From a virus (Duplodnaviria; Caudoviricetes), in the IMG/VR virus record IMGVR_UViG_3300017785_006519, positions 1 through 35,183 of that record: 35,183 bases of DNA; one strand, written 5' to 3'. Below, piece after piece: positions 4,025 through 34,812 of this stretch. A program made the position numbers and the translations under genes. Positions within the stretch are counted from its first letter, which is position 1, and every line of letters starts with the position of its first letter. Under the pieces are notes generated by a model. It was given only the letters and a program-made list of their open reading frames with translations. It ran no database searches and had not been told where the DNA came from.

Positions 4025-5617
4025 ATGGCACGACCCGTCACCCCCGTTTTACTCGACCACAAGGGCGAGCCCTTCAAGTTTTTCGTCGGTGAGTACGACG
4101 CCAGCCGCAACACCCGCGAGCGCACGCTGCACGGATCCTTTGCCTACTCTACGCGCCCCGAGTCGGAAATGCTGCCCTTTTCCGACCGCCTGAAAGTCGT
4201 CTCCTACCTGCGCTCCTCCCTGCGCAATAACCCCGTGATTGCCGCGCTGTGCTTCCGCTACGCGCTGGCCATCGGTTCCCCCACGGTGCACGCCGTGACC
4301 CTTGACGGTGGGTTCAACGATGAGAAAGAACGCGCACTCGAAAAGCGCCTACGCTCCATCATGCACGGCACCGGCTGGAGCTGGCACCGCCTGCACAAAA
4401 TCATTTCAACCGAACTCCTCATTGCGGGCGAAGTGTTCGCCGTGGAGGTGGACGACAAGGTGCAGCTCATCCCGTCCGAACTTTGCGGCTCACCGGCCAA
4501 ACCAGACGAGAACGAGATCGACGGCATCACCTACGACGACACCGGCGCGCCCCTGTTTTACCGCTTCGGCGCACGCCGCCCATCAGCGCATGGCCGCACC
4601 GGCTCCGTTTCCTTCGAGGAAGCCGACGGCGCGCAGTTGGTCCCCGCCGAGTTCGTCCACCACCTCGGCACCCCGTCGCGCATCGAAGAACGCCGTTTTT
4701 CCCCGATGCTGTCCTCGGTCGTTGGGCAGATTCAAAACCTTGACGACATCATAAAGGCCAAGGTAACGACCGTGAAAAACCAAGCGGCCATGTCGCTATT
4801 CTTCACCAAGAACTTTGACCCCGCTCTGTTCGCCGAAGCCTCCGCGCTCTCCTCTGCCGTGGAGCAGAACAGCGGCACCTTGCTCGCGCAGTCCGTCGCC
4901 CGCTCAGCCTATCAAGACGTTAAAAACGGCACGATCATGTATGGCGAGGTTGGCGAGGACGTGAAGCTCATCGAGCCGAACCTCAACGCGCAGGATTTTT
5001 CGCAGTTCGCTCTAATGCTACTCGATCAGATTTGCGCTCCGATCGGACTCTTCCCCGAGGAAGTTTTGATCGGTTATCGCAACAGCAACTATTCCAGCGC
5101 GCGCGCCGACCGCATCCGCTTAACCGATGTGCTGCGCGACATCCGCAAAGAGCGCGAAGCCTTCTGCGACCGCGTGATCGAGCGCCAAACCGGCATCGCC
5201 ATTGACTCCGGCGAGATCCAAGACGCAGGCGACGGCACCGCCGATATTACCTACGGCTGGCCGGTAGTGCGCGAGATCGACGAAACTAAGCACGTTTTGG
5301 CGCAAGCCACCTCGCTTGCCAACGGGTCGAAGTCGCTTGACCAGATTTGCGCGGAGAACGGAACATTTGCCGATCAGGTGCAGTCGCAGATCGTGCGCGG
5401 CGCTGTGCGCATGGCCAAGACCGTAAAGGCATACGCCCAATTTAACGCGCCCACGAAAGCGCAGATCGAAGCGCAGACCGTGACGCAGCAAGAGATTCTG
5501 GCGCACATGCCCAACGCCACCGCAGCGAGCGAGGCGCTTAACGCCATGGCGAACGCCGACGCCGCCGCAGTCAACGCGCAAGCCAACGCCGACCGCGTAA
5601 CCCTCCCCACCGTCTAA
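4025..5617 (+). CDS. Portal protein, lambda family
   Basis: RNNP, GEVF, 'NYSSARAD' and 'WPVVREIDETK' motifs; 530 aa. Confidence 0.9.
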   Translation: MARPVTPVLLDHKGEPFKFFVGEYDASRNTRERTLHGSFAYSTRPESEMLPFSDRLKVVSYLRSSLRNNPVIAALCFRYALAIGSPTVHAVTLDGGFNDEKERALEKRLRSIMHGTGWSWHRLHKIISTELLIAGEVFAVEVDDKVQLIPSELCGSPAKPDENEIDGITYDDTGAPLFYRFGARRPSAHGRTGSVSFEEADGAQLVPAEFVHHLGTPSRIEERRFSPMLSSVVGQIQNLDDIIKAKVTTVKNQAAMSLFFTKNFDPALFAEASALSSAVEQNSGTLLAQSVARSAYQDVKNGTIMYGEVGEDVKLIEPNLNAQDFSQFALMLLDQICAPIGLFPEEVLIGYRNSNYSSARADRIRLTDVLRDIRKEREAFCDRVIERQTGIAIDSGEIQDAGDGTADITYGWPVVREIDETKHVLAQATSLANGSKSLDQICAENGTFADQVQSQIVRGAVRMAKTVKAYAQFNAPTKAQIEAQTVTQQEILAHMPNATAASEALNAMANADAAAVNAQANADRVTLPTV

Positions 5618-7912: not shown

Positions 7913-8797
7913 ATGGCTATTCAATCTGTTGACAATTTAATCACCGCCCTGAGCGCGGGCCAGTCCAACCGCTACGATTGGAATAAGATCACTGGATCAG
8001 CATCATACGCGTCGGGGCGAAACTATGACCTGAGCCAGCTCTCCGGCTTACCCGTCGCCAACTCCTACGCAGGCACCGCGCTGGATTGGCGCACCTGCGA
8101 CGAGGCCACGGGCAACGGCACCGACATCTTTGGTCTCCCCCACGGCGGCAACGTCTCGGCCAGCATTAAGCATTTGCTCAATGGCTCCGCATGGAGCACC
8201 GCCGCAACGGGTGTACCCGCCACACTAATCCTTGTTGATATGCAGGGCTACTGGCCCGGCATTAATATGAACAGCAGCTCGGCTCAGACGCTCACTGGAA
8301 CGCCGACCTTGCGGTACACCAATGGCGCGGGTTGCCGCCTCTACCTCGTCGCTCGTGCTACGACCGGAGCCGTGGCGCATAACATTGCGATTTCGTATAG
8401 TAACCAGACCCCGACCTCGGGCCGTTCGCTCCCCGTAACGGTTGCGGCAACAGCCTCGGCAATCGTTCCCCACATCGTGCATTCGGGCACAGCAGCAAAT
8501 AACTACGGCCCATTCCTGCCGCTCGCCTCCGGTGACACAGGAGTTTCCACCGTTGCCTCGGTCACGCTGTCCGCCGCTTCGGGTACGGCTTCCACCGCCG
8601 CGCTCTGCTTGGTACGTCCCTTGGCTCAAATCACCATCAGCGTGACTGGCCTCATGACCGAGAAGGATTTCATGAACCAACTCCCCAGCCTGCCCATCGT
8701 CAAAGACGGCGCGTGCCTCGTCTGGCTCTTATCGGCTGGCGCAGCCGTGGCTACGCTCACCACGTTCTCGGGCTCCACTGAGGTTGTCTGGGGTTAA
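7913..8797 (+). CDS. Virion structural protein
   Basis: T/S/A-rich, beta-type composition; paralogous motifs with the previous gene. Confidence 0.7.
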   Translation: MAIQSVDNLITALSAGQSNRYDWNKITGSASYASGRNYDLSQLSGLPVANSYAGTALDWRTCDEATGNGTDIFGLPHGGNVSASIKHLLNGSAWSTAATGVPATLILVDMQGYWPGINMNSSSAQTLTGTPTLRYTNGAGCRLYLVARATTGAVAHNIAISYSNQTPTSGRSLPVTVAATASAIVPHIVHSGTAANNYGPFLPLASGDTGVSTVASVTLSAASGTASTAALCLVRPLAQITISVTGLMTEKDFMNQLPSLPIVKDGACLVWLLSAGAAVATLTTFSGSTEVVWG

Positions 8798-19888: not shown

Positions 19889-20089
19889 ATGATCGAAGAA
19901 ATCATCTCCCCTTGGCCCATGACCGTCACGGTCGCGCCCGATGTTTTTGTGAACGTCACAGGCATCTCGGCAAACTCCTACGTCATCGACAACCGCATCG
20001 GACTCGAATCCCCGACCGCCGCCAACGAGGCTAACGTCGAAGCCGAGCTTCCAGCGCTCTGGGCTGCCTTCAAACTGACCAACCCGTGA
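19889..20089 (+). CDS. Hypothetical protein
   Basis: Coupled ORF after the tail fibre. Confidence 0.55.
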   Translation: MIEEIISPWPMTVTVAPDVFVNVTGISANSYVIDNRIGLESPTAANEANVEAELPALWAAFKLTNP

Positions 20090-20532
20090 AGCTCATGATC
20101 CTCACCCTCGTCGCCTGCATCGGTGCTGCCGTCATGGCCGTGATCGTTGCCGAGGAAATCCAACGCCACCGCTCCATGATTAAAGCCCTGCCACCCTCAC
20201 AAACCGTCGCTCCGCACGAAATCGACGGCATGTTGCGCGAGGGCTACCCGCTCGTCGCCGTCCTCGGCACCGGCTCCATGCAACCCTACATCCCCGCAGG
20301 CGATGGCCTCGTGGCGTGGGTCATGGTAGAGCGCTGTGATTTCAGCCTTTTGGGCAAAGGCGACCTGGTGGTTTTCCGCACTTCGCACGGCAACATCCTG
20401 CACCAACTCGCCCAGCTCACCGCAGCCGGCTGGATCACCTCGGGACTCCATAATTCCAGCTACGACAACACCCGCGTTTACCCCGAGACCTTCGTCGGGC
20501 GCGTGGCAAAAACTTACATCATCAAAAAATGA
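20086..20532 (+). CDS. S26/S24-like serine peptidase with N-terminal TM
   Basis: GTGSMQP, GDLVVF and ILHQL motifs. Confidence 0.6.
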   Translation: MKLMILTLVACIGAAVMAVIVAEEIQRHRSMIKALPPSQTVAPHEIDGMLREGYPLVAVLGTGSMQPYIPAGDGLVAWVMVERCDFSLLGKGDLVVFRTSHGNILHQLAQLTAAGWITSGLHNSSYDNTRVYPETFVGRVAKTYIIKK

Positions 20533-21189: not shown

Positions 21190-21227
21190 AAAAAGCCCCG
21201 CTTTTTACGGTGGGGCTTCTGGTTTTT
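21190..21227. terminator. Probable bidirectional intrinsic terminator
   Basis: AAGCCCCGC / GTGGGGCTT stem with A-run and T-rich flanks, between convergent operons. Confidence 0.75.
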
Positions 21228-21362
21228 ACAAGGCTTATGGGGTCTTGTGCTGATGGAAAGCTTTCCAGTTTAGCAGGCGTTAAGCGCGCCTAACTAGATC
21301 CGCGCAAAACCTACTTTTTTACGGTTTCCAAGTGGTGTGGCCCGCCTACATGGAAAATCTTC

Positions 21363-21381
21363 CGACTACACAACGTTCGGC
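21363..21381 (+). promoter_or_regulatory. attI-like entry site (core G|TTCGGC)
   Basis: GTTCGGC 21375-21381 complements R'' GCCGAAC of attC1; no attC hairpin upstream. Confidence 0.55.
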
Positions 21382-21635
21382 AGAAGCTGGCAGCGGGCTT
21401 TCCCCTGCATCGTTGCTTCATCCCGCCATTCCGTGACTCGGTAGCCACAGCGGATCAAATCGGCACGGGCTTCCTTCCATTGCCGCTCAAACTCGCGAGG
21501 CGACACGCCAGAGCGCATCACAGCGTAGTCCGAGACCTCAATCGTAAAGTCGTCAGGCAACTGAGCCGAACCAAGCGCTGGACTCAATGACCACGATTGG
21601 CCCGCTAATTGTTTGCTATCAGGTAGAGTGGTCAT
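21366..21635 (-). CDS. Cassette 1 hypothetical protein
   Basis: Start inside attC1 (alternative ATG 21518); ends LPNVV beyond the core. Confidence 0.6.
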   Translation of the reverse strand: MTTLPDSKQLAGQSWSLSPALGSAQLPDDFTIEVSDYAVMRSGVSPREFERQWKEARADLIRCGYRVTEWRDEATMQGKARCQLLPNVV

Positions 21636-21655
21636 GAGTCAGCTTTACGTTAGGC
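21565..21655 (+). repeat. attC 1
   Basis: GCCGAAC-caagc-GCTGGACT...AGTCAGC-tttac-GTTAGGC. Confidence 0.9.
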
Positions 21656-21671
21656 AATGCGGACACCGGAA

Positions 21672-21935
21672 TTAGCGTGGCCCTTCGAAAAGGTATTCTT
21701 CGGTTTCAAGTGTTTCTTTATGCTCGGCTTGGTTGCTCGCTAATAGATCGTCGTGGAGATTAGCCCATCCAAGTACCCAAAAAGGGACGTGCTCGCTCAT
21801 GTGGTTTGGGCACTTATTTGCGAACTGGAGTTGATTAGCAGTAAGCTCTAGTATTAGGCCCCACTTTGATTTAATCCTAGTGCCAATCGGTAGCGGTTTA
21901 TTATCCGCATACAGTTTATAGATTTCGGGTGTCAT
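21672..21935 (-). CDS. Cassette 2 hypothetical protein (87 aa)
   Basis: MTPEIYK start after the AT-rich leader. Confidence 0.75.
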   Translation of the reverse strand: MTPEIYKLYADNKPLPIGTRIKSKWGLILELTANQLQFANKCPNHMSEHVPFWVLGWANLHDDLLASNQAEHKETLETEEYLFEGPR

Positions 21936-21973
21936 GCTATTTATGGTTATATCGGAATTACGGAAGTTACAGA

Positions 21974-22063
21974 GCCTAACCACGCGCTACAGCGAATAGC
22001 CCGCAGACGTCGCAAATTGTTCGTGTAGGTGCAGTGGGCTATCGCTGAGCTTAAACGTTGGGC
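21974..22063 (+). repeat. attC 2
   Basis: GCCTAAC-cacgc-GCTACAGC...GCTGAGC-ttaaac-GTTGGGC. Confidence 0.95.
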
Positions 22064-22233
22064 AATGAAGCATCCCGAACCAGCCGCTCAAATGCGCGGG
22101 CTTGGCTGAGCTTCGTGATGTGGCAGTAAAGGCGGAATCGGGATGACGTATATTGATCCACCTTCACCGTCACCGCGACCCGAGCGGGGCCAGCCTTACG
22201 GCCTGCTCCTTTGCGTTTGCCTCCGGCGCTCAT
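22051..22233 (-). CDS. Cassette 3 small DNA-binding protein (GGKRKGAGRK motif, RHH-like), copy 1
   Basis: Differs by one residue from 24882..25064. Confidence 0.8.
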   Translation of the reverse strand: MSAGGKRKGAGRKAGPARVAVTVKVDQYTSSRFRLYCHITKLSQARAFERLVRDASLPNV

Positions 22234-22406
22234 GCGCGGCGCACGCTGTTTTTCTTTACTTTGCCGGTTTTCGTGAGGCGGCAGTCATATTCCGTTCCAC
22301 CAACGAAAAACATAAGAACGTCCTCCACTTGGCGAATCTGACTGATGACTTCATTGGAGACGTTGAGGGCGGCGGCGATGTCGTAGCGGTGTTGGGTTAA
22401 GTTCAT
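22230..22406 (-). CDS. Cassette 3 first gene (58 aa)
   Basis: MNLTQHRYDIAAALNV...SVRRA; ATGA overlap with the next gene. Confidence 0.7.
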   Translation of the reverse strand: MNLTQHRYDIAAALNVSNEVISQIRQVEDVLMFFVGGTEYDCRLTKTGKVKKNSVRRA

Positions 22407-22413
22407 GAGTTAG

Positions 22414-22441
22414 ACCCTGATAGTATTTTTATTGTTTGCAA
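22414..22441 (-). promoter_or_regulatory. Putative cassette-internal promoter
   Basis: TTGCAA-16 bp-CAGGGT, 7 nt before the ATG; homologous to 25269-25296. Confidence 0.45.
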
Positions 22442-22496
22442 GCACTATTTCAAAATAAATCAAAAAAAGATTTCGGAGACGGAAACGGGCATCAGA

Positions 22497-22589
22497 GCCC
22501 ATCAAGGCGCTAGAGCCAAGATGCGCATTGGCCCGCTGATGGTTTAGCGTCAGGGGTGTTGCGCATCTGGCTCAGCTTTAACGTTGGGC
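22497..22589 (+). repeat. attC 3 (R'' AAC changed to ATC)
   Basis: GCCCATC-aaggc-GCTAGAGC...GCTCAGC-tttaac-GTTGGGC. Confidence 0.9.
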
Positions 22590-22798
22590 AGAGGCGGAAC
22601 CAATCGTAGCCAATGCGTAGGAATCTCGTAAGATTCTAGTCGGCACCAATCCATCCGGCCGAAGCCATTTATGCTATACTCCTTCCAGCATCCGTTTACC
22701 CATCTACAGCCCATGAGCATTTGCTTGGATGTTTCACACCAAAGCACCAGATCGCTTCCGTCTTTGGGTGCTGTATCTATACTTTTCCAGTCATTCAT
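22550..22798 (-). CDS. Cassette 4 DUF551-like phage protein
   Basis: WKSIDTAPKDG...PTHW motifs. Confidence 0.8.
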   Translation of the reverse strand: MNDWKSIDTAPKDGSDLVLWCETSKQMLMGCRWVNGCWKEYSINGFGRMDWCRLESYEIPTHWLRLVPPLPNVKAEPDAQHP

Positions 22799-22843
22799 AG
22801 TTTATATTATTCAAGGGTTATTCGTAAATTAAAAGGCATCAGA

Positions 22844-22935
22844 GCCCAACCAGGCGCTAGAGCCAAGATGCGCATTGGGCCGCTGATTGTTTACTGTCAG
22901 GGGTGTTGCGCATCTGGCTCAGCTAGACGTTAGGC
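22844..22935 (+). repeat. attC 4
   Basis: GCCCAAC-caggc-GCTAGAGC...GCTCAGC-tagac-GTTAGGC. Confidence 0.95.
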
Positions 22936-23106
22936 AGATTTTAAGACAAAGTATGCGTGCTCAATATTGCATTCGTCCCATTCGCCGTGAAAGCATTTAG
23001 CCAGTGGTGTATATGCCTCATGAATGATCTTACTTAGCCGTGCGTTCTCGGCTTTGAGTTCGTCGTTTTCAGAAAGGACGGCTTTAAGTTGTTCGGTGGT
23101 TGTCAT
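22930..23106 (-). CDS. Cassette 5 hypothetical protein (58 aa)
   Basis: MTTTEQLKAV...FVLKSA; stop codon inside the core site. Confidence 0.75.
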   Translation of the reverse strand: MTTTEQLKAVLSENDELKAENARLSKIIHEAYTPLAKCFHGEWDECNIEHAYFVLKSA

Positions 23107-23140
23107 GTTATCTATTAGTTATCAGAATTAAAGACGCAGA

Positions 23141-23234
23141 GCCTAACCAAGCGCTACAGAGAACGACCACGCTATTGACTCAAATGGTTCGAGTGTCGGG
23201 TAGATGTGGTCGTCTCTGAGCTTAAACGTTGGGC
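23141..23234 (+). repeat. attC 5
   Basis: GCCTAAC-caagc-GCTACAGA...TCTGAGC-ttaaac-GTTGGGC. Confidence 0.95.
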
Positions 23235-23539
23235 AACTCGGAATTAAGGCCGAGCGCTTCAGCTGCGTTCCTAAATGCAGACACGTTTATCGCTTGGTTC
23301 CCGACTACCCTAACCTTTTTCATTGGGTCAAGCCCGTCCAGCGCGGAGGCAAATAACCCAAACGGAGCGAGTGCGTCTTGCAGCTTTTCGAGCTCATTGA
23401 TTAGTTTCCTGTATTCGGCCCGATTTACGCGAGCGTCATGAACTTCTAAAAGCGATGCCAGCTCAGGAATCGCATCGTGATTCCACTCCATGCGTTCGCA
23501 GTATTTTCCAGCAAGTGTGATATATTCGTCGGGTGTCAT
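23222..23539 (-). CDS. Cassette 6 hypothetical protein (105 aa)
   Basis: MTPDEYITL start after the conserved leader; ends LPNV. Confidence 0.75.
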   Translation of the reverse strand: MTPDEYITLAGKYCERMEWNHDAIPELASLLEVHDARVNRAEYRKLINELEKLQDALAPFGLFASALDGLDPMKKVRVVGNQAINVSAFRNAAEALGLNSELPNV

Positions 23540-23570
23540 TTGATTAGTTATTTCGGAAGCGGGCATTCGA

Positions 23571-23660
23571 GCCCAACCACGCGCTACAGCGAATAGCCCA
23601 ATAACGCCGCTGATGGTTCGTGTATTTGTTTGTGGGCTATCGCTGAGCTTTACGTTAGGC
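23571..23660 (+). repeat. attC 6
   Basis: GCCCAAC-cacgc-GCTACAGC...GCTGAGC-tttac-GTTAGGC. Confidence 0.95.
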
Positions 23661-23837
23661 AGAGTTGACCTTACGGACAAGTTCGCGGGCTGCTTTGAGC
23701 ACCCTATCGTGGTCAACGTCGTCGTAATCCACAAACATCCTTAGTGCCTGTTCAACCTGTAGGCTTTCGGATTCTTCAGTTATCAAGAGGCGTTTATCAC
23801 CGGGCTGCGGGTCGTGGAGTTTAAGTTTCATATTCAT
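23655..23837 (-). CDS. Cassette 7 hypothetical protein
   Basis: 60 aa; stop codon inside the core site. Confidence 0.75.
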   Translation of the reverse strand: MNMKLKLHDPQPGDKRLLITEESESLQVEQALRMFVDYDDVDHDRVLKAARELVRKVNSA

Positions 23838-23870
23838 TGTTGTTTAGTTATTCGGAATTAAAGACACGGA

Positions 23871-23959
23871 GCCTAACCAGGCGCTACAGCGAATAGCCCG
23901 CAACGCCGCTGATGGTTCGGCTAGTTTCAGTGGGCTATCGCTGAGCTTGAACGTTAGGC
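23871..23959 (+). repeat. attC 7
   Basis: GCCTAAC-caggc-GCTACAGC...GCTGAGC-ttgaac-GTTAGGC. Confidence 0.95.
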
Positions 23960-24265
23960 AGAGAATGAATCCAATTCAGCCTGATACTTCGCAATCTTAC
24001 CCTTTAGCCACTTAATCCGTTTTCCGTTAATCACAGTTTTTTCTGCGGATGTTTTTCGACGCCCATCGGTATGAATCATATCCTCCGTAAGAATAGCACC
24101 GCACTCATATGCCTTCATTACTAGTTTTTTGGTGAGCGTTCGGCGGGATGGTATTATTAGTGCACCAGTCACAGGATGGACTGCATCGACCTTTAGTTTT
24201 CTTCCTGCATATGCCGTGTCGCAGAATTTCATTTTTTCGCTAAGCTCTGTTTTCTTATTAGTCAT
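23954..24265 (-). CDS. Cassette 8 basic hypothetical protein
   Basis: 103 aa; stop codon inside the core site. Confidence 0.75.
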   Translation of the reverse strand: MTNKKTELSEKMKFCDTAYAGRKLKVDAVHPVTGALIIPSRRTLTKKLVMKAYECGAILTEDMIHTDGRRKTSAEKTVINGKRIKWLKGKIAKYQAELDSFSA

Positions 24266-24324
24266 AGTCTTTCGTTTAGTTTCAGTGTTCGTTTACATTA
24301 CCCAATCATCGGAAAAACCATACA

Positions 24325-24418
24325 GCCTAACCAGTCGCTACAGCGAATGAGCACACTAGGCACGCTAATGGATCGTGTATCGAGTAGAAGTGCTCATCGC
24401 TGAGCTTGAACGTTGGGC
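24325..24418 (+). repeat. attC 8
   Basis: GCCTAAC-cagtc-GCTACAGC...GCTGAGC-ttgaac-GTTGGGC. Confidence 0.95.
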
Positions 24419-24765
24419 AATGCAGAAAGTTCGGACTCTGCTTTTTTAATGGCGACATGTGATCTTTCAATTACCCGCCTAAGTTGGTTTATCTTTTTCT
24501 CTCGCTTCTCCGCGTCCTTCTGCGCCTGCGTAAGTTTTCTGTGAATTTCCTTTTTTCTCATGTTGGGCTTCATCCACCCAACCTCACGCATGCGATTAAC
24601 GAATCCATCCCCGCACCCCTTAAAGGATCGCCAGTAGTTTTCCGTTTTTTCACTGAATAAGTGTTGCGGTATTTTATCGACATTTAAGGCGTGTCTTATC
24701 GCGGCCTGTTCCAGCGGCCTAAATACTGACATACGCACCTCGTTCTTTATTTTTTCGGTTATCAT
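24394..24765 (-). CDS. Cassette 9 hypothetical protein (123 aa, C-terminal coiled coil)
   Basis: MITEKIKNE start after the conserved leader; ends LPNVQAQR. Confidence 0.75.
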   Translation of the reverse strand: MITEKIKNEVRMSVFRPLEQAAIRHALNVDKIPQHLFSEKTENYWRSFKGCGDGFVNRMREVGWMKPNMRKKEIHRKLTQAQKDAEKREKKINQLRRVIERSHVAIKKAESELSALPNVQAQR

Positions 24766-24802
24766 AAATTCGTTTAGTTTTATTCGGAAGGGATACAAAG
24801 AC

Positions 24803-24894
24803 GCCCAACCAAGCGCTACAGAGAACGACCACGCTTGGCACTCTAATGGTTCGGGAGTCAGGGAGAGTGGTCGTCTCTGAGCTAGACGTTGGGC
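24803..24894 (+). repeat. attC 9
   Basis: GCCCAAC-caagc-GCTACAGA...TCTGAGC-tagac-GTTGGGC. Confidence 0.95.
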
Positions 24895-25064
24895 AATGAA
24901 GCATCCCGAACCAGTCGCTCGAATGCGCGGGCTTGGCTGAGCTTCGTGATGTGGCAGTAAAGGCGGAAGCGGGATGACGTGTATTCGTCCACCTTCACCG
25001 TCACAGCGACCCGAGCGGGGCCAGCCTTGCGGCCTGCACCTTTGCGTTTTCCTCCTGCGCTCAT
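24882..25064 (-). CDS. Cassette 10 small DNA-binding protein, copy 2
   Basis: Near-identical to 22051..22233. Confidence 0.8.
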   Translation of the reverse strand: MSAGGKRKGAGRKAGPARVAVTVKVDEYTSSRFRLYCHITKLSQARAFERLVRDASLPNV

Positions 25065-25261
25065 GCGGCCATTGCTGCGTTGATGGATGGAGCAGCAACC
25101 CGAGCGATCTGCGTGAATTTATCGCCCATGTAGTTATATGCAATCTGCGCATCAGCATATCCTAAGCTCTGCGCGACCTTGAAGAAATGGTCGGCGCGCT
25201 TCTGCGCGGCGCTAGCAATGCGGGCGTTTTTAATGCGGTCGGATGTGTTAAGTAGGTTCAT
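25061..25261 (-). CDS. Cassette 10 first gene (66 aa)
   Basis: ATGA overlap; unrelated to the cassette 3 first gene beyond MNL. Confidence 0.7.
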   Translation of the reverse strand: MNLLNTSDRIKNARIASAAQKRADHFFKVAQSLGYADAQIAYNYMGDKFTQIARVAAPSINAAMAA

Positions 25262-25268
25262 GAGTTAG

Positions 25269-25296
25269 ACCGTAAGAGCGTTTTGATTGATTGCAA
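25269..25296 (-). promoter_or_regulatory. Putative cassette-internal promoter
   Basis: TTGCAA-16 bp-TACGGT, 7 nt before the ATG; flanked by ATCAAAA repeats. Confidence 0.55.
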
Positions 25297-25350
25297 GCAC
25301 TAAATCAAAATAAATCAAAATAGATTTAGGAGACGGAAACGAGCATCCGA

Positions 25351-25445
25351 GCCCAACCAAGCGCTGGAGCCAACGACCCTGCTTGTCACTCTAATGGTTC
25401 GATTATCGCAGGTGTTAGGGTCGCGGCTCAGCTTTAACGTTGGGC
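25351..25445 (+). repeat. attC 10
   Basis: GCCCAAC-caagc-GCTGGAGC...GCTCAGC-tttaac-GTTGGGC. Confidence 0.95.
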
Positions 25446-25447
25446 AA

Positions 25448-25657
25448 TCAATGACCGGATTCATCGGTCTGCCAGTAATAGCAGGCTACGCGAAAAGCGT
25501 ATGTGGCGTCCACCCATCGCTTTTCTTTTATATACCGCTCGCCGATTTCTTCGCATTTTCCGGCAATTATTGCGGGCCGTAAATTACGCGACGGCATCGG
25601 CTGGCGTTCGGTGCAAGCCTCGTATGCAATGTTTTTAGCTTCTTGGTCTTCGTTCAT
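25448..25657 (-). CDS. Cassette 11 hypothetical protein
   Basis: 69 aa after the conserved leader. Confidence 0.7.
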   Translation of the reverse strand: MNEDQEAKNIAYEACTERQPMPSRNLRPAIIAGKCEEIGERYIKEKRWVDATYAFRVACYYWQTDESGH

Positions 25658-25698
25658 TTCAGTAATTTATTTAGTTATTCGGAAGGGATACAACGACC

Positions 25699-25745
25699 GC
25701 CCAACTATCAGGTAGAGTGGTCATGAGTCAGCTTGAGCGTTGGGC
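25699..25745 (+). repeat. attC 11, internally deleted (left arm lost)
   Basis: GCCCAAC joined directly to TATCAGGTAGAGTGGTCATGAGTCAGCTT, which is identical to the right arm of attC1, then GTTGGGC. Confidence 0.85.
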
Positions 25746-25747
25746 AA

Positions 25748-26335
25748 TCAGGAATCGGAAAGAGGCAGCTTGATCTCGGTGTAAATGCTAAGCGGTCCCG
25801 CCTTATCCAGCCAGTCACTCTGCCCTTGGCTCTCGGTTGACCGCTTATCGACCCCGTCTAGCACAGCCAAAGCGGCCGCATGGTCTCGATTGTATTCATC
25901 CACTTGTTCTTTCGAGCACACGTCCGGCAAGCAGTCCGGCCCCCACGATGCTAGTTTGGTTAAAGCTTTCCTGATCCGTCCGTTTTCCGCCTCAATCTCA
26001 GCGTATAATTTATATCGCATGCAATTGGTGGTCCACTCATCAGGACGACTTTCATTGGGCAATGGAGACACCAAGGCATCCCATGCGTCTATCTCTCGCG
26101 GCGCGTCGCCGATTTTGTGGCACTCAAAAGCGAGCGCGTCACGCAGAGCTTTTCCGCACTCCCGCAGCTTGGTGTTCTCGGCCCGCACTTGACGCAGCTC
26201 CTCGGCGTTGCAGCTCGCATCTAGCTCCATTTGTAGCCGTGCGTTCTCCCGCTCTAGGTTTTCGATTCGTTTACGCGCTGGAGAGCATTGCGCCTCCACC
26301 ATTTCCGCGAATTGTTCGTCAGTTAAATTGTCCAT
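25748..26335 (-). CDS. Coiled-coil hypothetical protein, probable fusion of two former cassette ORFs
   Basis: MDNLTD start; internal LPN encoded by a relic core ATTGGGC at 26054-26060. Confidence 0.65.
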   Translation of the reverse strand: MDNLTDEQFAEMVEAQCSPARKRIENLERENARLQMELDASCNAEELRQVRAENTKLRECGKALRDALAFECHKIGDAPREIDAWDALVSPLPNESRPDEWTTNCMRYKLYAEIEAENGRIRKALTKLASWGPDCLPDVCSKEQVDEYNRDHAAALAVLDGVDKRSTESQGQSDWLDKAGPLSIYTEIKLPLSDS

Positions 26336-26348
26336 ATTGTTTTTCGTT

Positions 26349-26759
26349 TTAGTTATCAGTTGAGCCAAAACCGCCCGCGCCGCGCTCGCTCGAATCCAGC
26401 TCGGCAACGACTGGCAGCGCCGCAAGCATGATGCGCGCTACCACGGCTTGCGCCACCCGTTGTCCCGACTCAATCGTTATCGGGTAATGCGTGAGGTTGG
26501 TCACTATTGCCGCCACTTCGCCGCGATAACCGGAATCCACCGTTCCGATGTGGCAGAGTAGGCCGCGCGCCGATAGGGACGAACGGCCACGGATCTGCAT
26601 TTCAAAGCCGTCTGGCAGTTGCACCGCGAAGCCGAGCGGGATTTTCACCGTGTAACCTGCGCCAATCACGGCGGGTTCACGGGCGCAGCAGTCAAGGCCG
26701 GCGTCGTTGGCGTGGGCGCGCGTTGGCGCTTGGCCGTTTTCAATCAGTTTTATTTTCAT
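26349..26759 (-). CDS. dut: dUTPase (trimeric family)
   Basis: AGLD, GRSS, GTVDSGYRG, RVAQ and RGAGGFGST motifs; alternative start at 26867. Confidence 0.95.
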   Translation of the reverse strand: MKIKLIENGQAPTRAHANDAGLDCCAREPAVIGAGYTVKIPLGFAVQLPDGFEMQIRGRSSLSARGLLCHIGTVDSGYRGEVAAIVTNLTHYPITIESGQRVAQAVVARIMLAALPVVAELDSSERGAGGFGSTDN

Positions 26760-29842: not shown

Positions 29843-30481
29843 TTAGGCTTTGTCGATTTGGAGTAATGGGAGGGCGAGGTAGCGGGCTGCTTTGTAATCG
29901 GCCACGAACGCATCAAGTGAGGCGGCGAGCTTTTCCGTGTAGTCATCCCAGTGAACGATGACGTGGTGCGGCTTCATGCCCGGGAAGTAGCTCCAGAAGT
30001 GCCACTCGGTGAGGCCGGTAACGGCCATGCTGCCGTGCACCTGCTGCTTGTAATCGTCGGGCAAACCGCCGTCTAAAACGTAGCCGATGTGCACCTTGGG
30101 CGACGGGCATTTGATTTCGAGCCCCGCCATGTATTCGCCAGCGGCGTCGGTGATGAGTCCATCGGGCGAGCATCCCGTGATGCCGTCGTCACGGATACAA
30201 AACCCGACCTGCGCCACGGTCAGCCCGGTAGCTTTGGCAAACGACTCCCGCGCTTCGGGCTCAAGGTCGTTGCCGCGCTGCATGTCGGCGCTCTTAAAAA
30301 TGTAGCTCCACTCAGGGCAGAAGGTTTGGCCGATCAGTTCGCGGATGTAACCCTTGGCCGACTTGCTCAAATCGCCCTTGGCGGCGGTGATGATGTCGGA
30401 AAAGCGCGAGGCCGTGGGGCGACCGCAGCGGGCTTGCAACCATTCCGGCGTGCCCTGTTCAAGCTCTAGGATGACTCTCAT
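29843..30481 (-). CDS. YqaJ/lambda exonuclease family protein
   Basis: QGTPEWLQAR, TASRF, GCSPDG and LEIKCP motifs. Confidence 0.93.
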   Translation of the reverse strand: MRVILELEQGTPEWLQARCGRPTASRFSDIITAAKGDLSKSAKGYIRELIGQTFCPEWSYIFKSADMQRGNDLEPEARESFAKATGLTVAQVGFCIRDDGITGCSPDGLITDAAGEYMAGLEIKCPSPKVHIGYVLDGGLPDDYKQQVHGSMAVTGLTEWHFWSYFPGMKPHHVIVHWDDYTEKLAASLDAFVADYKAARYLALPLLQIDKA

Positions 30482-31164
30482 TGTGCGCCCTCCTCGGTGC
30501 TGGCGATGTCGGAGGCGAACGGGTTAATCGGGGTTTCGAGCGCCACCGTTTCGGCTTTCGACGGAGTGACGTTGCGGGGTAAATCCGCTGCGATGTGGCC
30601 CAGCTCCTCGGTGGTTTTTAATCCCTTGAGCACGTCGCCGAAATTGTCGCGCAGGTTAAAACCACGGGCGCGGAAAAGCAGCATGCGTTCGGGGTACTGC
30701 GTCCACGGGCCGGCCTTGCCCCAAAGACCGGCGAGCTTGGCGTCGGCCACGCTGAAGCGGGATTCAAGCGGCTCGGAGTCCACGCGCTTGCTCGTCACGA
30801 TGACCGTGAGCTTGTCGCCCGTGCCCTCGGTTTTTTGGACGTAGCTTTGGCACAGCCCCGAGGCGCGAACCAGGGCGAGGGCGGCGTCACCGTAGATGCC
30901 GGGGCGTCCGTTGATGACGCCGATGTTTTGCAGCGCGGCCATCGGGGTGAGCCCCAACTCCATGCCGAGCTGAATGGCGATCAGGATGGACTCAGGTTTT
31001 TCCATGCCCTTGGGGGCGAAGCCGCTTGTGGCAACGGCCTTGGCGAAGCGGAAGGCTTCTTCGAGCGATTGGAGTTGAACGCCGGTCTTGCCCATCGCCA
31101 TGCGAGGCGGAACGGGCGCGAGTGCGGTTGTCGTGGGGACGGTGATTTGTGTGGTTTCGCTCAT
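30478..31164 (-). CDS. RecT-like single-strand annealing protein
   Basis: GMELGLTPM, INGRP and WTQYPERML motifs; adjacent to the exonuclease. Confidence 0.8.
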   Translation of the reverse strand: MSETTQITVPTTTALAPVPPRMAMGKTGVQLQSLEEAFRFAKAVATSGFAPKGMEKPESILIAIQLGMELGLTPMAALQNIGVINGRPGIYGDAALALVRASGLCQSYVQKTEGTGDKLTVIVTSKRVDSEPLESRFSVADAKLAGLWGKAGPWTQYPERMLLFRARGFNLRDNFGDVLKGLKTTEELGHIAADLPRNVTPSKAETVALETPINPFASDIASTEEGAQ

Positions 31165-32989: not shown

Positions 32990-33198
32990 GACTTCAATTC
33001 ATTGGCACATTTAGGCTTAAACTTGAATTCATTATGTAAGTGCCTGCAAAAGTCATTGCGTATGTAATTTATTACGCGGTTTTGGCGGTTTTCGGCTGTG
33101 AATTGGCGGATTCGTGCGTTCTGGAATTACGTAAACCATTGCAAAGATGATTACTCTACGTAATTTAATCGCGGGCTTTTGCCGTTTTTGGGCGTTTT

Positions 33199-33381
33199 CA
33201 CCCTAAAAAGACATATTTACCCTAAAATATGGCGATTTTAGGGGTGTTTACCCCTAAACATATTTTACCCTAAAAAATGCTCTTTATAGGGCTTACCCCT
33301 ATAAACATATTTTCCCCCCTATATACATAGGGGGTGGAATATGTTTGGGGAGTAGGGTTGGATTTACCCTAAACCCTAAAC
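33199..33381. repeat. Iteron-like CCCTAAA / ACATATTT repeat cluster
   Basis: Multiple direct and inverted copies in an AT-rich intergenic region. Confidence 0.75.
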
Positions 33382-34584
33382 CGGATTCGGCGGCATGACC
33401 TCAAAGAACTCATCGGCCGCCCCTTCTTCGGGCAGGACCAGGTAATGCCCAAACGCCGTGGCCGATGAGTTGCCCGCCTGCCGCGTCGTGTCGGCAATAT
33501 CCTGCCCGCGCTGAAAATGGTACGACAGCCCCGTGTGCCGCAAAATATTTTCCTGCCAAACATCCGACACGATCCCGCGCTTCTTGTTTTTGACCGGCCC
33601 GCGCTTGGCGAGCCCCGCCGCCTCCCTCACCCCATCCCAACTCACACGCTTGCAGCTCGCCACCGGCTCACCCGTCGCCAGCGCCCTAGCCTTGGCTGCG
33701 ATGAGCACCGGCAACACGCAGGCCGGTACGGTCACGGTGCGATAACTCACCGTGCCACGTTTTCGCGGTCTGACCTCGATTGTCGGGGTTTTTGCGTCAA
33801 GGCGCATGTCGGCAGGCAAAACCCGCAGCGCTTCGGCGTGGCGCATGAAACACCAGCACGCGAGGGCCACATAAGCAGCCATTCCTTGCGATTTGGCGCG
33901 CTTTGCGGCACCCATTAGGGCGTGGGTATGGGCAGGGGTCAGAATGCGCGGCAAATCGACCGCGCGGGCACGTTCACTTAAATCCTTAAAATCGACCTCG
34001 AAAGGAATTTCCTTCACCCACCGCCGCTTCTTCCAGTGATTCGCCCACGCTTGCAGCACAGCGGCGTCGTTTTTCCGCGTGAAATCCGCCCGCTTCCCAC
34101 GATAAACGAACTCCTCGTAATGCTCCGGCGTCACCTCGCCCACGTTCGACACCCCAATCTCAGCCAGCCAAACCGTAAACGCCCGACACCGGCTAAGGTT
34201 ATTCGACCTCGTTGCATCCTGCCGCCCACGCTCAGCCTGATGCGCGAGCCAATCGGCCAGCGCTTGGGTGAGCGGCACGGGGTCGCCCTTGACCATGACG
34301 CGGTCGGAGGCGATCACGCAGGCCAGAAGCGAGCGCCCCCCTGCCCGCTCCACTGCGGCCTCGGCATCGCGGAGCTGGGCCTCGGTGAGCCTAGTCATGC
34401 GCGGAGCCATGATGTTCTCGGTCGCCTGCGTGAGCACGGCCTGCATTTCCTGCATCTTTGCACGCAGCGCGGCGACGTCGCGCCCCTGCTTGCGGATACG
34501 CTTGCCCAGATGGAATCCATCGAGGAGCCATGAACCGCCGGGAAGCGGAATGAGTCGGAGCAGATTCTCGCGGTGTCGGGCCAT
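33376..34584 (-). CDS. int: Phage tyrosine integrase
   Basis: MRHAEAL (R), NILRHT, AGNS...HY; adjacent to attP. Confidence 0.92.
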   Translation of the reverse strand: MARHRENLLRLIPLPGGSWLLDGFHLGKRIRKQGRDVAALRAKMQEMQAVLTQATENIMAPRMTRLTEAQLRDAEAAVERAGGRSLLACVIASDRVMVKGDPVPLTQALADWLAHQAERGRQDATRSNNLSRCRAFTVWLAEIGVSNVGEVTPEHYEEFVYRGKRADFTRKNDAAVLQAWANHWKKRRWVKEIPFEVDFKDLSERARAVDLPRILTPAHTHALMGAAKRAKSQGMAAYVALACWCFMRHAEALRVLPADMRLDAKTPTIEVRPRKRGTVSYRTVTVPACVLPVLIAAKARALATGEPVASCKRVSWDGVREAAGLAKRGPVKNKKRGIVSDVWQENILRHTGLSYHFQRGQDIADTTRQAGNSSATAFGHYLVLPEEGAADEFFEVMPPNPV

Positions 34585-34592
34585 GCCGTACA

Positions 34593-34812
34593 GTTGGCGT
34601 TAATCTTGGCGAGAATCAAGAAAAGCGGCGAAAATCAGCGAATTATCGCCAACTCTGCCAGAATTAAGGAGGGGCCCAAAACCCCACTTTCTCCTCTGAG
34701 AGAGTGGAGCCGATGGTCGGGATTGAACCGACGACCTGCGGTTTACGATACCGAGGGCGCTACCTCTCAAGAGCTGGAATGTTGGCGTTAATTGTTGGCC
34801 ATTCTCGCCAAC
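34593..34812. repeat. Integrase arm-type sites TTGGCG(A/T)(G/T)AAT
   Basis: Copies at 34593, 34606 and 34781 (+) and at 34642 and 34801 (-), flanking the core. Confidence 0.7.
34705..34748 (-). other. attP core: 3' half of tRNA-Thr(CGT)
   Basis: TCGTAAACCGCAGGTCGTCGGTTCAATCCCGACCATCGGCTCCA contains the anticodon loop, T-arm, acceptor strand and CCA; no 5' half. Confidence 0.88.

What the first reader, a model, noticed from the sequence alone, without database searches (positions are those of the whole stretch)
21375..25745. Core-site complementarity records real G|TT cassette recombination
Each cassette's left core complements its own R'' at the diagnostic position in 11 of 11 cases: GTTCGGC/GCCGAAC (cassette 1), GTTAGGC/GCCTAAC (2, 5, 7, 8) and GTTGGGC/GCCCAAC (4, 6, 9, 10, 11, and 3 with ATC). 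In the linear array, R'' and R' of the same attC mismatch in 6 of 11 (attC1, 2, 4, 5, 6, 8). This is what insertion of circular cassettes by crossover at G|TT would leave. It fixes the + strand as the attC top strand and argues against simple repeats or terminators.
Basis: seen in the sequence. Interest (0 to 1): 0.85.

Follow-up and report, generated by a model that had tools for sequence, protein, structure and literature searches.

The report
Phage integron with backward-facing gene cassettes
A freshwater phage carries a gene-docking site matching that of its likely bacterial host, followed by eleven gene cassettes whose genes all face backwards; near-identical phages hold different cassettes at that same site, so it likely borrows the host's integron enzyme to reshuffle its own accessory genes.

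Summary
In detail: left core and own R'' pair in 11/11 cassettes (p=1/2310), against 5/11 within linear attCs; 47/63 in eleven related phages. This is the expected integron signature, but it is strand-symmetric and cannot fix orientation. Orientation (+ is top strand) comes from extrahelical bases (10/10 sites), host arrays and an attI site. The window is a temperate phage, probably of freshwater Opitutaceae (49-bp match to their tRNA-Thr). It has no intI, but the site at 21375 matches the attI upstream of intI in three Opitutaceae genomes. Two pairs of near-identical phages diverge exactly at this core. The unusual part is that all 11 cassette ORFs lie antisense to attC. Host cassettes face forward. 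Related phages mostly face backward; their annotatable reversed genes are phage-type (RNA ligase, methyltransferases), show third-position-biased substitutions, and some start inside their own attC. Reversed cassettes also occur in phages with canonical, proteobacterial-looking attCs. Best reading: a phage-borne, integrase-less integron serviced by host IntI in trans and read by the phage early transcript, with homologous recombination making chimeric cassettes. Recombination and expression were not tested. New variant of a known kind.

The parts
21193..21218 (.). Hairpin with A-run before and T-run after, between the late/lysis arm and the array; likely bidirectional terminator
   Evidence: consensus match only; conserved in relatives
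21225..21377 (+). attI region; simple site ends CTACACAACG|TT, crossover after G 21375; about 100 nt collinear with the host attI
21376..21649 (+). Cassette 1 with attC1 (21565-21655); reversed ORF 21366-21635 (89 aa) whose longest ATG-started frame begins inside attC1 and stops inside attI
21650..22057 (+). Cassette 2 with attC2 (21974-22063); reversed ORF 21672-21935 (87 aa)
22058..22583 (+). Cassette 3 with attC3 (22497-22589, R'' GCCCATC); reversed ORFs 22230-22406 and 22051-22233 (weak ribbon-helix-helix match, below cut-off); promoter-like site 22453-22425 on the minus strand
   Evidence: relatives in L006 and L009
22584..22929 (+). Cassette 4 with attC4 (22844-22935); reversed ORF 22550-22798 (82 aa)
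22930..23228 (+). Cassette 5 with attC5 (23141-23234); reversed ORF 22930-23106 (58 aa), stop codon is the TAA in the core
   Evidence: C-terminal 43 codons shared with the last array gene of L002
23229..23654 (+). Cassette 6 with attC6 (23571-23660); reversed ORF 23222-23539 (105 aa); 98% identical to cassette 8 of L006, with other neighbours
23655..23953 (+). Cassette 7 with attC7 (23871-23959); reversed ORF 23655-23837 (60 aa)
23954..24412 (+). Cassette 8 with attC8 (24325-24418); reversed ORF 23954-24265 (103 aa)
24413..24888 (+). Cassette 9 with attC9 (24803-24894); reversed ORF 24394-24765 (123 aa)
24889..25439 (+). Cassette 10 with attC10 (25351-25445); paralogue of cassette 3 with a different upstream ORF (25061-25261) and the same small ORF (24882-25064)
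25440..25739 (+). Cassette 11 with internally deleted attC11 (25699-25745, 47 nt); reversed ORF 25448-25657 (69 aa)
25740..26359 (+). Distal remnant: core plus reversed ORF 25748-26335 (195 aa) with the cassette-type leader but no attC, abutting the dUTPase stop codon
   Evidence: middle of the protein occurs in cassettes of L010 and L044
26349..31164 (-). Early/replication genes pointing into the array (dUTPase, DnaC-like loader, initiator, RusA, exonuclease 29843-30481, RecT-like 30478-31164)
33376..34584 (-). Phage tyrosine integrase, not an IntI
34705..34753 (.). Likely attP core, 49 bp identical to tRNA-Thr(cgt) of Opitutaceae genomes

Best explanation
This temperate phage carries an attI site matching that of Opitutaceae integrons and eleven attC-bounded cassettes but no integron integrase, and the host's IntI likely inserts and excises the cassettes at G|TT in trans. 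The cassette genes lie antisense to attC (shown). They therefore point the same way as the early/replication genes on the far side of the array and are likely read by that transcript or by cassette-internal promoters, ending at the terminator beside attI (inferred). Selection for expression from that side would explain why phage-type cassettes are reversed while host-type cassettes picked up by the same arrays face forward. New cassettes enter at attI and old ones erode at the dUTPase end (inferred from paired genomes and half-sites). A second process, probably RecT/exonuclease-type homologous recombination between cassettes, makes chimeric interiors and swaps attC bodies (mosaicism shown, enzyme inferred).
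For: attC anatomy: R''-5 nt-L''(8)-stem-L'(7)-5/6 nt-R' with two extra bases on the left arm in 10 of 10 intact window sites. Over window plus relatives, all 57 of 69 sites that aligned have at least two extra bases on the left arm and 5 of the 57 also have one on the right. attI: the best matches to window 21215-21385 in host genomes lie upstream of and opposite to an intI over the TIGR02249 cut-off in G001, G002 and G004. Host link: 49 of 49 bp identical to tRNA-Thr(cgt) in G002-G004; all 22 genome loci with this attC arm pattern are Verrucomicrobiota. Exchange at attI: L010/L011 agree at 4999 of 5000 upstream bases and diverge at core position 6; L005/L007 agree at 999 of 1000 and diverge at position 4. 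Contigs in runs X2 and X4 join attI directly to a cassette-3-type core (21371 to 22054). No intI in the window or in 10 relatives, 4 of them scored 100% complete. Reversal: minus-strand ORF cover exceeds plus-strand cover in 11 of 11 window cassettes and 53 of 63 in relatives; in 27 host intervals the forward ORF is never the shorter (one tie, three lack an ORF of 40 aa). Seven pairs of reversed ORFs carry 45/25/152 substitutions at codon positions 1/2/3. All 5 host-type 103-nt attCs follow cassettes I judged forward by eye (one, L009 cassette 4, scores reversed by the cover measure); none of the 57 judged reversed has one. Mosaics: partial shared blocks and swapped attC bodies.
Against: No recombination or expression was tested. 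The first extra base is T or C on the bottom strand, not the conserved G (Bouvier 2009), although host sites share this. 16 of 63 relative cassettes do not match their own core, mostly in L009 and L002. Cassettes with near-identical content often carry different attC bodies (0.62-0.92 identity, background 0.66), so the cassette-plus-attC unit is not stable. None of the 14 window array ORFs has a Pfam match over cut-off, and PHROG matches are weak (best E about 0.001). The window record is scored 45% complete and linear. The PF00589 search found nothing in 5 relatives but Pfam also misses the window's own integrase, so a diverged recombinase elsewhere is not excluded. attI is quite variable: 5 of 13 phage sites lack the exact host ACACAAC before the core.
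Confidence: 0.72

Rival explanations
1. The attCs act mainly as repeats for homologous (RecT-type) shuffling, like T4 PeSL elements; IntI built the units long ago and no longer acts.
For: RecT-like and exonuclease genes in the phage; chimeric interiors and attC bodies swapped about 12-20 nt before R''; core match survives any crossover in the attC body.
Against: attI has no homology to attC bodies, yet near-identical phages switch first cassette at the core; shared blocks start at the first bases after the core in most pairs; extrahelical bases and stems are kept over 20 different inner stem sequences.
Confidence: 0.11
2. Same platform, but the recombinase comes from a phage (the resident integrase, a diverged small tyrosine recombinase, or a co-infecting phage with intI), not from the host chromosome.
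For: One other phage record holds the N-terminal part of an intI next to a reversed array (G017). Unchecked earlier notes report short Xer-like recombinases beside other reversed arrays.
Against: The window's integrase lacks the IntI-specific insertion, sits beside a tRNA attP, and has a weak match in only 1 of 5 array-bearing relatives. The phage attI matches the attI of a full-length host intI.
Confidence: 0.1
3. A piece of a host integron was captured once and is a frozen, decaying CALIN.
For: attI and attC arms are of host type; distal sites are eroded; a few forward host-type cassettes, one a ParE/Phd pair, are present in relatives.
Against: Arrays differ between near-identical phages; genes are reversed, phage-type and show third-position-biased substitutions; the short phage-type attC was seen in no host chromosomal array among 22 loci, only in L033, which is a copy of a phage region.
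Confidence: 0.04
4. The minus strand is the real top strand and the genes are in the ordinary direction.
For: Three window ORFs stop on the TAA inside the core and six read through it into the neighbouring site, as ordinary cassette genes do at R''.
Against: Extra bases are on the left arm; attI and the crossover are on the plus strand; the same attC arms precede forward genes in host arrays.
Confidence: 0.02

Closest known systems
Bacterial integrons (intI, attI, Pc, attC cassettes); here the chromosomal integron of freshwater Opitutaceae (G001, G002, G004)
   Same: attI core and about 100 nt of flank, attC arms and extrahelical bases, G|TT crossover, core/R'' complementarity, newest cassette at attI.
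   Different: No intI; cassette genes antisense to attC; shorter attC (87-96 nt against 103 nt) with its own loop motif; phage-type cargo; some genes start inside their own attC.
Phage-borne integrons and CALINs (Qi et al. 2023, PMC9892861; parts 2-4 of 7 read, supplement searched by term)
   Same: attC arrays without intI in phages; one prophage CALIN has its own attI; phage attCs recombine with attI1 in their assay; cargo includes DNA methyltransferases.
   Different: In the parts read they describe scattered cases and host capture, not a fixed locus shared by related phages, turnover at attI between near-identical phages, or systematically reversed genes. No Verrucomicrobiota entry in the supplement.
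CALIN elements (Cury et al. 2016, PMC4889954; passages read)
   Same: At least two attC without a nearby intI; may be mobilised by an integrase encoded elsewhere.
   Different: Here an attI is identified and in use, the replicon is a phage, and the genes are reversed.
Treponema atypical ('reverse') integrons (PMC3607928; passages read)
   Same: Inverted layout relative to the textbook integron.
   Different: There intI is transcribed toward attI; the passages read do not describe genes reversed against attC. Here there is no intI and the genes are reversed.
T4-type PeSL regulatory cassettes (Arbiol et al. 2010, PMC2839356; abstract read)
   Same: Repeated hairpin elements between small non-essential phage genes; modular shuffling and mini-circles.
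   Different: PeSLs are promoter plus terminator units; these elements have attC anatomy, a directional attI and a core-site crossover.

Membership tests
attC site | R''/R' cores, L''/L' boxes, 5 and 5-6 nt spacers, stem-loop | tested here: met
   10 of 11 window sites intact, attC11 deleted. Single-site folding z-scores are modest, -0.7 to -3.2 for five intact sites.
attC site | Two or three extrahelical bases on the R''-L'' arm | tested here: met
   10 of 10 window sites; 57 of 57 aligned sites, 12 more not aligned
attC site | First extrahelical base is a G on the bottom strand | tested here: not met
   Top-strand A (43) or G (14) of 57, so T or C on the bottom strand; host sites share the A
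attC site | Bottom strand recombined by an IntI | not testable with these tools
   needs an assay
Complete integron | intI next to the array | tested here: not met
   no TIGR02249 match in the window or 10 relatives
Complete integron | attI at the head of the array, used for insertion | tested here: met
Complete integron | Pc upstream of attI expressing forward cassette genes | tested here: not met
   genes are antisense in 11 of 11; no sigma-70-like site upstream of attI in the scan, which is weak for this phylum
CALIN | At least two attC, no nearby intI | tested here: met
PeSL-type shuffling elements | Each repeat holds a strong sigma-70 promoter and a terminator stem-loop | tested here: not met
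   3 promoter-like sites against 4.7 expected, 8 terminator-like against 7.2; none tracks the repeats
Temperate tailed phage | Terminase, portal, capsid, integrase and attP | tested here: met

The most novel reading that the evidence does not exclude
Phages are cassette factories. They build their own integron cassettes from phage genes at the DNA level, trimming a gene and fusing it antisense between a core and an attC that can itself supply the start codon and first 20-35 residues, and run a mirror-image cassette pool on the host's IntI across at least two host phyla. This would make the unknown mechanism of cassette creation observable and would show that it is not bound to the gene's sense strand.
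Probability: 0.35. Interest if true: 0.9.

Novelty: new variant of a known kind. Interest (0 to 1): 0.7.

Why it matters
The core match itself is ordinary integron biology. What matters is the setting. Integrons are known as bacterial tools, lately as stores of anti-phage genes; here related phages appear to keep the host's attI and use it to rotate their own accessory genes, with a reversed layout that suits phage early transcription. Phage, likely host, host intI, attI and attC sequences are all in hand, so the claim is directly testable in a standard E. coli assay. Cury et al. 2016 state that the mechanism creating new cassettes is unknown. Cassettes made of recognisable phage genes, whose relatives mostly sit in phages with no attC nearby (68 of 80 RNA ligase loci), give before-and-after pairs for that question.

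Tried and rejected
Orientation from core matching: rejected, strand-symmetric. Simple repeats or terminators: rejected, stems vary while pairing and extra bases persist, terminator scan at chance level. The span 21288-21381 as a twelfth attC: rejected, no L boxes and no attC fold; it is the attI region. Tracking which attC body travels with a shared cassette was inconclusive: own-body identity 0.62-0.92, previous-body 0.65-0.78 in seven pairs. Metagenome scan with the phage-type pattern gave 4 loci of other length, not examined further. Homologue search for the cassette 4 protein returned only itself. Run search: no RNA holder listed, so expression is untested; only assembled contigs could be laid, which show no circles or strand. 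The RNA ligase tree is a quick tree, the careful search did not finish; it needs 2 changes for the cassette label, so one origin of ligase cassettes is not supported. PF00589 search of relatives is uninformative. Distant holin relatives L013-L017 show no attC of this type in the fetched DNA. Literature: ten searches of the held library returned no paper whose title, abstract or read passages describe reversed cassette genes in phages; subscription journals are largely missing, most hits were seen only as listings, and bioRxiv supplements were closed.
Full report
THE OBSERVATION. Position 4 of each cassette's left core complements its own R'' in 11 of 11 cases, against 5 of 11 within the linear attCs; the exact permutation probability is 1/2310. 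It replicates in 11 related phage arrays: 47 of 63 own-core matches at positions 4-7, 24 of 59 linear, shuffle mean 27.0, 0 of 20000 shuffles as high. Host arrays give 23 of 27. That circular cassettes have better-paired cores than linear arrays is established integron biology (recalled; Cury et al. 2016, PMC4889954, passages read, describe the array as chimeric attC sites).

WHAT THE WINDOW IS. A tailed temperate phage: terminase, portal and capsid on the plus strand; dUTPase, DnaC-like loader, RusA, exonuclease, RecT-like protein and a tyrosine integrase on the minus strand. The record is the whole G000 contig, scored linear and 45% complete; two relatives with terminal repeats are 35.1 and 38.9 kb. 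The array (49% GC against 60% elsewhere) lies where the two arms converge. Beside the integrase, 34705-34753 is identical over 49 bp to tRNA-Thr(cgt) in G002, G003 and G004. These genomes are labelled Rariglobus, Opitutus and Opitutaceae. All 22 genome loci with this attC arm pattern are Verrucomicrobiota, and the 7 runs holding the stretch are freshwater or lake metagenomes, 4 of them with most of it. The host is therefore likely a freshwater Opitutaceae bacterium (inference).

ORIENTATION AND CROSSOVER. All 10 intact window sites read R'', 5 nt, an 8-nt L'', stem, loop, a 7-nt L', 5-6 nt, R' on the plus strand, with extra bases at L'' position 4 and at position 10 and none on the right arm. 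Over window and relatives, 57 of 69 sites aligned; all 57 have at least two extra bases on the left arm and 5 also have one on the right. Bouvier et al. 2009 (PMC2727003, passages read) place extrahelical bases on the R''-L'' arm and show they select the strand, so plus is the top strand. The first extra base is T or C on the bottom strand rather than the conserved G; host sites share this. The site at 21375 is an attI. Three of five host genomes hold an intI over the TIGR02249 cut-off. In all three, a match to the last 20-28 nt of window 21215-21385 lies upstream of intI on the opposite strand, ending CTACACAACG|TTCGGC, and the alignment extends over about 100 nt. L010 and L011 agree at 4999 of 5000 bases upstream of this site and first differ at core position 6; L005 and L007 agree at 999 of 1000 and differ at position 4; beyond the core they are unrelated (25 and 22 of 92). 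Contigs in runs X2 and X4 join attI directly to a cassette-3-type core; these may be other strains in the same samples. Because spacers and attI share the bases before GTT, the crossover is placed to within a few bases, consistent with G|TT.

NO INTEGRASE OF ITS OWN. TIGR02249 finds nothing in the window or in 10 relatives, four scored 100% complete. The phage integrase aligns only weakly to the host IntI and lacks its insertion; it has a weak match in 1 of 5 array-bearing relatives. A diverged recombinase is not excluded, because Pfam misses even the window's integrase.

THE GENES FACE BACKWARDS. Minus-strand ORFs cover more of the cassette than plus-strand ORFs in 11 of 11 window cassettes and 53 of 63 in relatives. 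By eye I judged 6 of the 63 forward. In 27 host intervals the forward ORF is never the shorter one (one tie; three have no ORF of 40 aa). The reversed frames are real genes: seven pairs carry 45, 25 and 152 substitutions at codon positions 1, 2 and 3. The window's own ORFs have no firm annotation. Of 63 ORFs from relatives, 10 match PHROGs; the 7 reversed ones include an RNA ligase, two DNA methyltransferases, a PAPS-reductase-like protein and DUF1391, and the 3 forward ones include a ParE/Phd pair. Phage-type attCs are mostly 87-96 nt; the 103-nt host type occurs 5 times, each to the right of a cassette judged forward, and never with the 57 judged reversed. This also supports the plus-strand unit. 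Some reversed genes begin inside their own attC: the same attC-encoded N-terminus is fused to different proteins in L002 and L006, and in L004 and L005, where a GAGGTG precedes the ATG within L'. Window cassette 1 has this layout. Six window ORFs read through the core and take their stop codon from the neighbouring site, and three stop on the TAA in the core.

TURNOVER AND MOSAICISM. Related phages carry arrays at the same place, between the lysis region and the replication arm, where flanks could be matched (L002, L006, L009, L010, L012, L044). Window cassette 6 is 98% identical to L006 cassette 8; cassettes 3 and 10 have relatives in L006 and L009; one forward cassette is first in L009 and fourth in L002. 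Distal ends are eroded: attC11 is deleted, the last window gene has a core but no attC, and L005, L006 and L007 end in half-sites. Many interiors are chimeric and near-identical cassettes carry different attC bodies. That points to a second, homologous process, plausibly the phage RecT and exonuclease (inference), and it weakens the idea of a stable cassette-plus-attC unit.

HOW WIDE. Of 80 viral loci with relatives of the cassette RNA ligase, 12 have attCs opposite to the gene, none in the same direction, 68 none detected; the finder recovered 10 of 10 intact window sites and gave no hit in 10 kb outside the array on either strand. Nine of the 12 have a different attC type, mostly with the canonical top-strand C; I call these proteobacterial-looking from recall, their hosts were not determined. 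A quick tree needs two changes for the cassette label. A scan for such canonical attCs gave 36 viral loci; of their flanking ORFs of 70 aa or more, 17 of 48 reversed candidates and 1 of 27 forward ones match PHROGs at E 1e-5. PHROGs favours phage genes, four hits are one family, and several loci look like forward host-type cassettes. After this reading was formed, a word search of earlier scan notes showed 14 findings of reversed phage cassettes in other genomes; they are unchecked and are not counted as support. Searches by place and by sequence showed nothing.

MECHANISM. Shown: attC anatomy and polarity, attI identity with the host site, absence of intI, exchange at attI between near-identical phages, reversed and constrained genes, mosaic interiors. 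Inferred: host IntI acts in trans, during infection or lysogeny; reversed genes are read from the early side and end at the hairpin at 21193-21218; selection for expression explains the direction; RecT-type recombination makes chimeras. Confidence 0.72. How a phage gene first becomes a cassette is not shown.

COMPARISON AND VERDICT. It works like an integron without its integrase and meets the CALIN definition; it is not a complete integron. Qi et al. 2023 (PMC9892861, parts 2-4 of 7 read, supplement searched) report integrons and CALINs in 21 of 10,705 phages, one prophage CALIN with an attI, and recombination of phage attCs by IntI1. I found no description of systematic reversal or attI turnover among related phages there or in ten searches. 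Treponema integrons invert intI (PMC3607928, passages); PeSLs shuffle T4 genes through promoter-terminator repeats (PMC2839356, abstract); attG insertion (bioRxiv 10.1101/2022.09.11.507474, abstract) explains isolated cassettes, not an attI-headed array. Two reviews and one metagenome paper were searched by term and added nothing on this point (PMC8618304, PMC8946536, PMC13323075). The finding as written is ordinary and its orientation argument is invalid, but the locus is a new variant of a known kind with a direct test available. Interest 0.7.

Noticed in passing
L164 5117-5560 (G017): Another phage holds the N-terminal part of an intI, truncated, at the distal end of a reversed array and on the same strand as the attC top strand; a possible attI lies near 8710. 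This is not the usual intI-attI layout.
   Followed up: partly
L019 614-934 and 1698-2042, L035 6086-6440, L073: Host arrays hold a recurring family of gene-less cassettes rich in CGGAA, also in first position at attI; phage cassette leaders share a TCGGAA/TCAGAA box 12-25 nt before R''.
   Followed up: partly
window attC loops, e.g. 22531-22545 and 23609-23620: Phage-type attCs share a loop motif RATKGTT although their stems differ; host-type 103-nt attCs lack it. Function unexplained.
   Followed up: partly
L008 6546-6677, L044 8324-8438 and 8782-8913, L050 305-431 (oriented coordinates): Long attCs (115-132 nt) whose loop holds an A/T-rich leader and ATG; in L008, L050 and the first L044 site this opens the reversed gene, so the attC arm is translated in frame.
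   Followed up: partly
L009 11559-12146: A chimeric cassette: the left 228 nt match the forward host-type cassette 4 of L010, the right part is a reversed phage-type gene with a phage-type attC.
   Followed up: partly
L012 5669-5759 and 6460-6550: Two successive attCs are identical while the cassette between them has a different attC in L010; suggests gene conversion.
   Followed up: no
L033 / L069 (G001:C66) and L054: A Rariglobus-labelled genome that has a full intI also holds a copy of the L054 phage region with attI and array, including a forward ParE/Phd cassette; possibly a prophage with host IntI in the same cell, or a binned phage contig.
   Followed up: partly
window 21262-21360: The phage attI flank holds two imperfect copies of a palindrome that occurs once in the host attI; possible extra IntI or host-factor binding sites.
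   Followed up: no
window 33185-33360: Repeated ACCC(C)TAAA-like boxes in an A/T-rich stretch downstream of the integrase gene; perhaps integrase arm sites or an origin.
   Followed up: no
window 26349-26359: The dUTPase ends STDN-stop within the cassette-type leader of the last array gene, whereas the L044 dUTPase ends STGV-stop; the stop codon may have come from the leader.
   Followed up: partly
L038 137-520: One Verrucomicrobia chromosomal cassette has equal forward and reversed ORFs, the reversed one reading through the core as in phage cassettes.
   Followed up: no
window 20086-20532: Conserved gene before the holin-like gene with a weak peptidase S26 match (E 0.044), present in the close relatives.
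   Followed up: no
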